DNA of 64,000 nucleotides from positions 5,770,750 through 5,834,749 of the forward strand of contig CAJINV010000001.1 in NCBI GenBank assembly GCA_905178155.1. Direction: 5' to 3'. The stretch comes from Amoebophrya sp. A120 (taxonomy: Eukaryota; Protista; Dinoflagellata). Both the position numbers and the translations under genes were made by a program. Of this stretch, positions 24,901 to 27,558 are shown piece by piece (position 1 is the first letter of the stretch; every line of letters begins with the position of its first letter). The notes beneath the pieces were generated by a model. That model was given only the letters and a program-made list of their open reading frames with translations, made no database searches and was not told where the DNA came from.

Positions 24901-27558
24901 AACCTGTGCTTCCTCGGCCTGGTGGGGATACACGACCCGCCGCGGCCCGAGTGTCGGCAGGCCATCGAGGAGTGCAGACAAGCGGGGATCAGCGTTATCA
25001 TGATCACTATCAAATGTAAAAATGTCTGGGTCTGGAAAAGTGCCAGGCTTGTCAACATGCTCTGCTAGCATGACTGTTAAGTCTGTCATGCAAGACACTC
25101 AAAAGCGCCACTTTTGTGTCATGCAAAAACCCACTTTCTCATGCAGAATAGGCAACACCAAGCGACTCAAAAACCTGTCATGCTGAGCCGTCATTTCTGG
25201 CGTTCTCTTGATTCGCCAACCAGCATCACAAGTTTCCAGACCCAGACATTTTTACATTTGATAATCACCGGGGACAACCAGCTGACCGCACAGGCCATCG
25301 CCACGAATTTAGGCATCCTCAACGAACACGACAGATTTATCCTGAGTAAAAACGTCCCCACACCAGAGTCAGGATGGGGATTTTGCAACACAAACCTAGG
25401 AGTTTTGGGAGTCACGCATGACAAATTGCACTCCGCAGTGTAGTGCTGGTTAGCAAGTGCAGCCGCATCACAGATTCGTCTGCTCATCCTGTTCACAGCA
25501 TCGCAAATTCCAAAACACGACTGGAAATGGCTCTCATGGGGATGCGCATTACAAGTCTTCCCGTCTTTGCAAATCTGCATTACAACTCTGGTGTGGGTAC
25601 GTTTTTACTCAGGATAAGATTGGGGGAGAAGAGCTTCACGGGCGCGCAGTTCGGCGCCCTCACGGAGTCGGATAAGCTCCGGGTATATAAAATCTATTTG
25701 ATTTTATTTTAATATCAGGTGTTGGAATTTCATATGGTCGCCCGGTGCTGACGGGTGAATAAAATCAAAATTCTATATGATTGTTGCTGTATCTTCTTCA
25801 TGAAATAAATCCCCTCGCCCATACAGGTCCTTGCGAACATGATTTCTGGGCCCAACGGGGGCGGTGTCTTCTCCCGTACGGAGCCGAAGGACAAACAGGC
25901 GATCGTGAAGATTTTGTCCCAGCTCGGCGAAATCACGGCCATGACAGGAGACGGCGTCAACGACGCGCCGGCTCTGAAGCAGGCCTCCATCGGGGTGGCC
26001 ATGGGAATCGCGGGCACGGAAGTCGCCAAAGAAGCCAGTGACATGGTGTTGGCAGATATCACAAGAAAAAAGTGTTACAGGTACGCATTTGTTGGAGTTT
26101 CTGCATCACAAATTCTCTCTGTGTGGCAGGCAAAGCTTGTAATGCAAAGATCATAAGGGAAAATACGTAGGAAACGAGGCTCGCAAACTTTTCGGCATGA
26201 CAAAGGTTGTCTGTCTTGCGGCTCCTGCAACACAATGTGTAGCTGTAACACTTCTTTCTTCGCATAGCACACGACAACTTCAGCACCATCGTCCACGCCG
26301 TCGAGGAGGGACGATCGATTTACAACAACATGAAGGCGTTTATCCGGTATAAGTAGTTGTTTTTTTTTCTGTCATTACGCAGCGATAGTAAACTTGATCC
26401 ATGACCATGACTCCGTGAAGGAACTACAAATTAGTAGTGTTCGACGAGTAGTTCCTGAGGCGCCAATCGCGCCTGCTTGTCGTGGATTTGAGACAAATAA
26501 TTTCAGTCCCCGCGTGTTTTGCATTTCAATTTTCCTCCCTCCATCCACCCAGGTACCTGATTTCGTCCAACATTGGTGAAGTGGCGTCTATCTTTTTCAC
26601 GGCCGCGCTGGGCATTCCGGAGGGGCTGATCCCGGTGCAGCTCCTGTGGGTCAACCTCGTCACCGACGGGCCACCCGCCACCGCGCTCGGCTTCAATCCG
26701 CCGGACGTGAATGCGATGAAGAAGCCTCCGCGGCGAAAGGACGACATGCTGATCTCTGGTTGGGTCTTTTTCCGTTACATGGTGATCGGGATCTACGTCG
26801 GGTTTGCCACCGTCGGTATCTTCATCTATTGGTACTGCATGGACAACAAAGCGCCGGATCAACACACGCTGGTCTCGCTCGAGCAGCTCATGAACTGGGG
26901 AAAATGCAACAGCGGCGAGGGCATCTGGTCCGGCTTCTCCGTGAAACCGCTGCCCGGCATGGATCTGTCCACAGGTACTAGCTATATCTGAATCTTTGTT
27001 TGGAAAAGGGTCTCATTATTCGGATTTGCTGTTGCTTTCTCCATTCGTACGGGGTCATGCGAAGATCGAACTGTCTTTGCACTCTTTATTTCCGTGGTTA
27101 CTCTCATCTTAGTCTCACAACCATCCGGATCAAAACTTTTCATTTCGGAATCACTTTTGGATTTGGACCGATCCACCCTGAACTACAAAACAGAACCCTG
27201 CGAATACTTCCGGAAGGGAAAATTGAAGGCGTCCACGCTGTCGCTGTCCGTGCTGGTGGTCATCGAAATGCTGAACGCGCTGAATGCCCTCTCCGAGGAC
27301 GGTTCCCTGCTCCAGATGCCGCCGTGGAAGAACCCGATGCTGATCCTGGCTATCATCGGCGCCACGGGCATTCACATGATCATCTTGTACATCACCGCAC
27401 TCAACCCCGTCTTCTCCGTGGTCCCGCTGGACCAGCACGATTGGTTCCTGGTACTGGCGTTCTCCTTCCCGGTCATTCTCATCGACGAAATTCTGAAGTT
27501 CTTCGGTCGCATGACCACAGCCGTGGACCGCCGCGCGCGCACGATCAAGGCCGACTAA
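21929..27558 (+). CDS. SERCA: Sarco/endoplasmic reticulum Ca2+-ATPase (P2A); 13 exons
   Basis: [66 protein letters not shown]. Eight GT-AG introns (22544-22755, 23075-23272, 23654-23807, 24128-24253, 24434-24621, 25683-25826, 26347-26552, 26975-27193) and four introners. Confidence 0.97.
22127..22388 (+). mobile_element. Introner family A, 262 bp, in SERCA
   Basis: TSD CGGAG/CGGAG; removal restores NELAAEEGKS; close copy of 14085-14347. Confidence 0.95.
25008..25263 (+). mobile_element. Introner family A, 256 bp, in the SERCA TGD motif
   Basis: Perfect 31-bp TIR TATCAAATGTAAAAATGTCTGGGTCTGGAAA; TSD ATCAC/ATCAC; removal restores IMITGDN. Confidence 0.97.
25338..25616 (+). mobile_element. Introner family D, 279 bp, in SERCA
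   Basis: 32-bp TIR TATCCTGAGTAAAAACGT(C/A)CCCACACCAGAGT; TSD AGATT/AGATT; removal gives [11 protein letters not shown]. Confidence 0.95.
26057..26266 (+). mobile_element. Introner family E, 210 bp, in SERCA
   Basis: TIR TATCACAAGAAAAAAGTGTTACAG / CTGTAACACTTCTTTCTTCGCATA; TSD GCAGA/GCACA; removal restores MVLADDNFSTIV. Confidence 0.93.

What the first reader, a model, noticed from the sequence alone, without database searches (positions are those of the whole stretch)
26052..26271. Mismatched TSD fixes the splice register and suggests the element end mimics the host donor (N-TAT vs G-TAT)
Seen: the TSD copies are GCAGA (5') and GCACA (3'). Only keeping base 4 of the 5' copy gives the invariant SERCA VLADDNF; the 3' copy gives VLAHDNF. 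The junction therefore lies after TSD base 4 or 5. After base 4, every introner intron begins N-TAT (GT, CT, TT and AT starts all occur), aligning +2 to +4 with the host donor GTAT. The one deviant arm (44737, TAC on the reverse strand) matches the alternative host donor GTAC. Inference: splicing here tolerates any base at +1 and any terminal dinucleotide, with the TIR hairpin bringing the ends together.
Basis: inference. Interest (0 to 1): 0.8.

Follow-up and report, generated by a model that had tools for sequence, protein, structure and literature searches.

The report
Transposon introns spliced without GT-AG ends
In the marine parasite Amoebophrya A120, a hairpin-shaped transposon inside a calcium-pump gene is cleanly spliced out of the RNA without the usual GT-AG ends, and the cut likely falls after base 4 of its 5-base target duplication so that the transposon end likely stands in for the host's GTAT splice donor, a testable rule for already known introns whose borders were reported as unknown.

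Summary
The window is Amoebophrya sp. A120 (SERCA exon 100% identical) and the element is one of its published introners. RNA contigs join 26055 to 26271 in 4 of 4 runs, so the mRNA reads GAC (Asp) and TSD base 4 comes from the 5' copy. This site cannot separate a cut after base 4 from one after base 5. In a sister strain, 2 of 3 base-5 mismatches with a comparator favour the 3' copy and 1 is uninformative, which points to base 4. New support for donor mimicry: among 289 oriented elements the sense-strand 5' arm is TAT in 288 and TAC in 1, while the 3' arm has 14 non-TAY changes (p=1e-4). Host donors are GTAT (7 of 9) or GTAC (2 of 9). The +1 base and terminal dinucleotide match exon background. 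The 44737 argument is wrong as stated: that arm is the 3' end of a + strand intron. Most likely mechanism: a relaxed spliceosome reads TAY at +2..+4 and the hairpin positions the 3' cut (about 55%, inferred). Known elements, new border rule.

The parts
26052..26056 (+). 5' copy of the 5-bp target-site duplication (GCAGA); bases 1-4 stay in the mRNA, base 5 (26056) is the likely intron +1
   Evidence: sequence; RNA joint 26055->26271, ambiguity 1
26057..26266 (+). 210-nt non-autonomous TIR element (introner); both arms start TAT (20 of 24 terminal bases complementary); folds into a long hairpin
   Evidence: fold z -3.2 with flanks, -4.2 as intron; 87% identical copy in locus L023
26267..26271 (+). 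3' copy of the TSD (GCACA); base 4 is likely a derived G>C that removed an AG at the intron end; base 5 is the likely first base of the next exon
26056..26270 (+). spliced intron of 215 nt, ends AT..AC at the base-4 register (TA..CA at the base-5 register)
   Evidence: the 12-intron gene model reproduces P0001 exactly
21929..27558 (+). SERCA-type Ca2+-ATPase gene, 1,051 aa, with 8 host GT-AG introns (7 GTAT, 1 GTAC) and 4 introners (22127, 25008, 25338, 26057)
14080..14352 (+). introner with a TSD mismatch at base 4 (CCTTG/CCTCG, synonymous); not resolved by RNA
22122..22393 (+). introner with perfect TSD, +1 = G (GTAT start)
25003..25268 (+). introner with perfect TSD, +1 = C
   Evidence: RNA contig length fits its removal
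25333..25621 (+). introner with perfect TSD, +1 = T
28888..29232 (+). introner in a ChaC-like gene, +1 = C, spliced
29750..29908 (+). introner with a TSD mismatch at base 1 (TGGGC/GGGGC); RNA keeps the 5' copy's base
   Evidence: joint 29750->29905, ambiguity 4, in 3 of 4 runs
34110..34335 (+). introner, +1 = A; no RNA joint listed
34382..34544 (+). introner, +1 = A; no RNA joint listed
36982..37140 (+). introner, +1 = C, spliced
44480..44742 (+). introner whose 3' (acceptor-side) arm ends GTA instead of ATA; the intron begins C-TAT
   Evidence: an RNA loose end at 44738 matches the upstream exon
44792..45121 (+). introner, +1 = T, spliced

Best explanation
This is a MITE-like introner of Amoebophrya A120 that is spliced out of the SERCA mRNA leaving one copy of its 5-bp TSD, likely with a fixed cut after TSD base 4 and likely by the host's relaxed spliceosome reading the element's TAY end as donor positions +2 to +4. 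Shown: precise removal, bases 1 and 4 from the 5' copy, no constraint on +1 or on the terminal dinucleotide, hairpin folding in silico, and stricter conservation of TAY on the sense 5' arm. Inferred: base 5 comes from the 3' copy as a general rule (about 80%); the spliceosome does the cutting; TAY is read as in the host donors G-TAT/G-TAC; the TIR stem puts the 3' cut 4 nt past its base, replacing AG recognition. Because both TIR ends start TAY, an insertion in either orientation at any 5-mer would become an intron without changing the protein.
For: RNA joints at 5 of the 8 introners in the laid stretch, with ambiguity values that fit one retained TSD. Base 5: in L013 (CAGCG/CAGCA) the 3' copy gives Met at the DUF285 repeat position, which is Met in 3,236 and Val in 9 of 3,568 motif matches in 150 homologues. 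In L061 (CTGGC/CTGGT) the A120 orthologue P0133 has Val, the 3' copy. None of the 3 cases with a comparator favours the 5' copy. Strand asymmetry: 288 TAT + 1 TAC on the 5' arm versus 18 deviants (14 non-TAY) on the 3' arm among 289 oriented elements; with a detection that does not require TAT, 2 (both TAC) versus 14. Host donors: 7 GTAT, 2 GTAC of 9. Farhat 2021 Table S4: all nine predominant A120 non-canonical boundary pairs start GT, CT, AT or TT; its section 11 puts the commonest direct repeat four nt upstream of the 5' end. The same paper did not detect U1 snRNA or snRNP27, and loss of SNRNP27K goes with a +4 U preference in yeasts (PMC10581693, abstract).
Against: No RNA test of base 5 was possible: the window has no base-5 mismatch and the sister strain has no RNA here. 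Of 11 single base-5 mismatches, 2 support, 1 is uninformative (L076: A120 has Ala, matching neither copy), 3 are synonymous and 5 found no orthologue. L061 may only show which copy mutated. About half of the 3' arm changes are A>G, which keep U-G wobble pairs; in the strict set the pair-breaking changes are 5 (3') versus 2 (5'), not significant (p=0.45), and in the looser set 9 versus 1 (p=0.02). Mimicry stops at +4, and arm positions 4-24 show no clear strand asymmetry. Standard spliceosome chemistry needs a first-last base pair (recalled); no such coupling beyond exon dinucleotide background was seen (p=0.32). Aligner placement inside a repeat could bias Table S4 (recalled, not tested).
Confidence: 0.55

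Rival explanations
1. The same fixed register, but excision is directed by the hairpin alone, by a non-spliceosomal or separate machinery that measures 1 nt and 4 nt from the stem base, as for Euglena nonconventional introns; the TAT/GTAT likeness is incidental.
For: Hairpins in all 12 window elements. No GT, AG or first-last base constraint. U1 not detected. Euglena uses paired motifs at fixed spacers (PMC12501133 abstract), with circular products (PMC11282704 passage). Wobble pairing could explain half of the arm asymmetry.
Against: Non-TAY changes are 0 versus 14 (0 versus 10 in the strict set, p=0.002), and the only 5' variant is TAC, the host's second donor. Three 3' arms carry T>C at the middle base while no 5' arm carries the wobble-compatible A>G. 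Elements with degenerate 3' ends still sit in intact frames.
Confidence: 0.22
2. The register is not fixed: the cut can fall after base 4 or base 5, or shifts to use GT or AG where the TSD offers them, as in several Polarella introner classes.
For: The finding's own site allows base 4 or 5. Polarella classes splice in 2-5 frames (bioRxiv 10.1101/2020.10.14.339549, passages). Farhat's Fig. 3 legend calls the sites variable and the border unknown.
Against: No enrichment of GT or AG at registers 2-5 or of any base at TSD positions 1-5. At 26057 a cut after base 1 would give an AG end but RNA excludes it. Both informative base-5 cases point to register 4.
Confidence: 0.16
3. The elements are read by a U12-like (minor) pathway, since many start N-TATC or N-TATCCT, like the U12 donor RTATCCTT, and U12 introns tolerate odd terminal dinucleotides.
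For: Element +5 is C in 68% of 289. This intron is AT..AC. Physarum gained TIR-like U12 introns with AT-AG, AT-AA, GT-AT and AT-AT ends (bioRxiv 10.1101/2020.10.12.336362, passages).
Against: U11, U12, U4atac and U6atac were not found in either strain. +1 is C or T in 101 of 229. Positions +5 onward show no clear strand-specific constraint, and 28% have G at +5.
Confidence: 0.07

Closest known systems
Amoebophrya A120 introner elements (Farhat et al. 2021, PMC7789003; sections 10, 11, 12, 16, passages and supplement part 3 read)
   Same: Same organism and element type: inverted repeat starting TAT followed by an A stretch, 3-5 nt direct repeats, hairpin, about 240 nt, no common terminal dinucleotide; hairpin joining of exon ends already proposed.
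   Different: The paper leaves the border unknown and variable and does not link TAT to the host donor. Here the TSD is a clean 5 bp, the cut is placed after base 4, and TAY is shown to be conserved strand-specifically.
Introners of Micromonas, Aureococcus and Polarella (PMC11282704 passages; bioRxiv 10.1101/2020.10.14.339549 passages)
   Same: TIR/TSD DNA elements that become introns on insertion, with splice sites taken partly from the element and partly from the TSD; some work in both orientations.
   Different: Those need canonical or near-canonical sites (GT/GC/GA and AG) and so survive only at certain targets; A120 TSDs match exon background at all five positions.
Fritillaria borealis non-canonical introns (PMC11282704 passage; PMC13326754 abstract)
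   Same: MITE-derived, TIR and TSD, excised by an altered spliceosome.
   Different: Fritillaria prefers AG-AC/AG-AT and keeps U1, with duplicated U2AF; A120 shows no preferred ends and U1 was not detected.
Euglena nonconventional introns (PMC12501133 abstract)
   Same: Paired ends with fixed spacers to the exon borders, no GT-AG.
   Different: Different motif (CDG/CHG, spacers of 3 and 5-6 nt, purine at exon start); A120 has spacers of 1 and 4 nt and a 5'-biased TAY that matches the host's own donor.

Membership tests
Amoebophrya A120 introner elements | host is A120 | tested here: met
   SERCA exon 100% identical to the NCBI A120 protein; gene model reproduces it
Amoebophrya A120 introner elements | terminal inverted repeat starting TAT with an A stretch about 7 nt later | tested here: met
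Amoebophrya A120 introner elements | 3-5 nt direct repeat at the borders | tested here: met
   5 bp, 4 of 5 identical here; 224 of 321 perfect overall
Amoebophrya A120 introner elements | repeated, and spliced with non-canonical ends | tested here: met
   87% identical copy in the sister strain; many copies in the DNA run; RNA joint
MITE / TIR DNA transposon | TIR, constant-length TSD, short and non-autonomous | tested here: met
   length of element plus TSD is spread evenly modulo 3 (108/88/93)
MITE / TIR DNA transposon | cognate autonomous transposase with the same TIR | not testable with these tools
   no whole genome held; Farhat reports no transposase in A120
U2-type spliceosomal intron | GT (GC) ... 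AG termini | tested here: not met
   AT..AC or TA..CA here; GT..AG in 4 of 229 at register 4
U2-type spliceosomal intron | donor +2..+4 like the host's canonical donors | tested here: met
   TAY in 289 of 289 sense 5' arms; host donors GTAT 7, GTAC 2; depends on register 4
U2-type spliceosomal intron | lariat with branch point, dependence on U2/U6 | not testable with these tools
   only assembled contigs held for this strain
U12-type intron | RTATCCTT donor and minor snRNAs | tested here: not met
   this intron starts ATATCAC; +1 is unconstrained; minor snRNAs reported absent (not re-tested here)
Euglena-type nonconventional intron | N3CDG...CHGN5-6|R signature | tested here: not met
   paired motif is TAT...ATA at spacers 1 and 4; first exon base unconstrained

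The most novel reading that the evidence does not exclude
Amoebophrya has a spliceosome that ignores both terminal dinucleotides: without U1 it recognises only TAY at +2..+4 and uses the transposon's own hairpin as a ruler for the 3' cut, so any TIR element with TAY ends and a 5-bp TSD is a ready-made, orientation-free, target-free intron. Strain A25 (introns starting TT, repeats starting TTA plus two purines, per Farhat) may follow the same logic as T-TARR standing in for G-TARR.
Probability: 0.45. Interest if true: 0.8.

Novelty: new variant of a known kind. Interest (0 to 1): 0.55.

Why it matters
More than 60% of A120 introns are non-canonical, their borders are published as unknown, and U1 was not found. 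A fixed rule (N-TAY ... NNNN, cut after TSD base 4) would allow tens of thousands of borders to be annotated correctly. It would explain how these transposons spread through exons at no cost to proteins, and it turns an open question (spliceosome or hairpin-guided machinery) into specific lariat and reporter tests. The elements themselves and the hairpin idea are already in print.

Tried and rejected
No whole genome is held, so the genome-wide RNA test could not be run. The first read lay was swamped by repeat-derived joints from the DNA run, and the 2026 raw-read runs X9 and X10 lay only on short element pieces, not on SERCA exons. The viral collection held no match to the TIR pattern. Three cluster look-ups (30 ORFs) returned 3 A120 orthologues, of which 1 spans a base-5 mismatch. 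A homologue search for the L034 gene found only its own gene call. L076 was uninformative. The structure-free tallies of base-5 mismatches show no drift towards G at +1 (4 versus 3 of 11). The register tables printed and the 44485 frame test were in the wrong frame and were redone. The 44737 arm was rejected as a donor. A cut after TSD base 1, which would end 66 of 229 introns in AG, is excluded at 26057 by RNA. No RNA joint was listed for the elements at 34115 and 34387; coverage there was thin, so this is no evidence. Searches of earlier scan findings returned nothing. Figures 3 and S19-S25 of Farhat are images and could not be seen; they may already display the base-4 register.

Full report
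Identity. The window is eukaryotic and matches Amoebophrya sp. A120: the exon at 26554-26970 is 100% identical to the NCBI A120 protein P0001, and the A25 orthologue is 86% identical. A 12-intron model from 21929 to 27558 reproduces P0001 exactly. Eight of these introns are host GT-AG introns and four are TIR elements. Farhat et al. 2021 (PMC7789003; I read sections 10, 11, 12 and 16, passages, and supplement part 3) describe these as introner elements, with inverted repeats starting TAT, 3-5 nt direct repeats and hairpins, and state that the border position remains unknown.

The site. GCAGA (26052-26056) and GCACA (26267-26271) flank a 210-nt element. Cuts after TSD bases 0-3 give His; cuts after base 4 or 5 give Asp. 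DD is found in 109 of 110 motif matches among 120 homologues. RNA contigs join 26055 to 26271 with one base of ambiguity in 4 of 4 runs. These runs are one study and at most two samples, and the tool only guesses that they are RNA, but they also skip the GT-AG introns. His is therefore refuted and base 4 comes from the 5' copy. Since Asp is the conserved state, the 3' copy most likely mutated from AG to AC at the intron end, and the intron is still spliced. A second mismatch (29750/29904, base 1) also keeps the 5' copy (3 of 4 runs). Joints were listed for 5 of the 8 elements in the laid stretch; one more (44485) shows a loose end that matches its upstream exon.

More copies. No genome is held. 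A pattern scan of metagenome contigs gave 152 loci from one assembly, a sister strain with 93-97% protein identity to A120 in two comparisons. Of 557 TIR candidates in these loci and the window, I kept 324 (TIR >=17/24 with at most one TSD mismatch, or >=19/24 with two). I oriented 289 of them with a codon model on the flanks; all 12 window elements lie in + strand genes. The TSD is 5 bp: 224 of 321 strong candidates are perfect at length 5, at most 32 at any other length. Of the 289, 229 have perfect TSDs and 49 a single mismatch (13, 7, 7, 11, 11 at bases 1-5).

Base 4 or base 5. That every intron starts N-TAT at register 4 is a tautology, so base-5 mismatches are needed, and the window has none. 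Of the 11 in the sister strain, two are informative. In L013 the 3' copy gives Met and the 5' copy Val at a DUF285 repeat position that is Met in 3,236 and Val in 9 of 3,568 motif matches. A downstream AG could also serve there, but the donor would still be G-TAT. In L061 the A120 orthologue has Val, the 3' copy; this may only show which copy mutated. L076 is uninformative, three cases are synonymous and five found no orthologue. No case favours the 5' copy. Farhat's Table S4 agrees: all nine predominant A120 non-canonical pairs start GT, CT, AT or TT, though aligner bias inside a repeat is possible (recalled). I put register 4 at about 80%.

Donor mimicry. Host donors are GTAT (7) or GTAC (2) among 9 verified introns. 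A better test supports the idea. The sense 5' arm is TAT in 288 and TAC in 1 of 289, while the 3' arm deviates in 18, of which 14 are non-TAY (0 versus 14, p=1.2e-4). A detection that does not require TAT gives 2 (both TAC) versus 14 among elements with TAT on one arm (p=0.004). Against: half of the 3' changes are A>G and keep wobble pairs, and pair-breaking changes are 5 versus 2 in the strict set (p=0.45) and 9 versus 1 in the looser set (p=0.02). The likeness ends at +4 (host +5 is A/T, element +5 is C/G), and positions 4-24 of the arms show no clear asymmetry.

Ends and hairpin. Among 229 perfect TSDs all five positions match exon base composition (p 0.14-0.51), and the -1/+1 pairs match exon dinucleotides (p=0.32). 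AG ends 18 introns, GT starts 57, both occur together in 4, and 61 of 64 combinations are seen. All 12 window elements fold with z from -4.2 to -12 and 15-25 end-to-end pairs; the 9 host introns have z from -1.6 to +1.1. These folds are predictions, and a TIR element is expected to fold, so they show that the hairpin is possible, not that it is required.

Mechanism. Most likely (0.55) a relaxed U2-type spliceosome reads TAY at +2..+4 and the stem fixes the 3' cut 4 nt beyond its base. U1 snRNA and snRNP27 were not detected in A120, and loss of SNRNP27K goes with +4 U donors in yeasts (PMC10581693, abstract only). The rivals are hairpin-guided non-spliceosomal excision as in Euglena (0.22), variable registers as in Polarella (0.16) and a U12-like route (0.07).

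Novelty. The elements, their non-canonical ends and the hairpin idea are published. Five literature searches and the passages read found no statement of a fixed base-4 register, of N-TAY donor mimicry or of strand-asymmetric TIR conservation. Subscription papers are not searched and Farhat's figures could not be seen. Verdict: a real feature and a new border rule for a known class of introner, partly shown and partly inferred; interest 0.55.

Noticed in passing
window 26267-26271; L037, L039, L148, L038: Among 18 single mismatches at TSD bases 3-4, AG is present only in the 5' copy in 5 and only in the 3' copy in 1 (expected about 1.4; post hoc p about 0.01). Introner 3' ends may lose AG rather than gain it; three of these cases have A at +1 and end AC or AA.
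   Followed up: partly
window 20522-21789: A 1.27-kb intergenic element with 109-nt inverted arms (91% complementary), each holding a perfect 44-nt palindrome, and a GC-rich interior; depth in the DNA run is about 3-4 times the background. Probably a different repeat family from the TAT introners.
   Followed up: no
window 28893-28971: The 2026 RNA run X9 has no reads on SERCA exons at 90% identity but about 170 reads on the first 80 nt of this element with a foreign flank. This suggests a more distant organism carrying a related TIR family, although Farhat calls the families strain-specific.
   Followed up: no
window 28751-30723: A ChaC-like gamma-glutamylcyclotransferase fused to a MazG-like domain, interrupted by two introners.
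   Followed up: partly
Farhat 2021 section 11 and Table S4 (strain A25): A25 non-canonical introns mostly start TT and its repeats start TTA plus two purines, which reads as T-TARR and would mimic G-TARR by the same logic.
   Followed up: no
L076:4890-5016: A 127-nt element whose removal (132 nt with the TSD) is a multiple of three and stop-free, so an automatic gene call reads straight through it.
   Followed up: partly
window 46900-64000: No TAT introner was detected in the last 17 kb, which includes ORFs of 637 and 1,893 aa, whereas genes between 14 and 45 kb hold 12.
   Followed up: no
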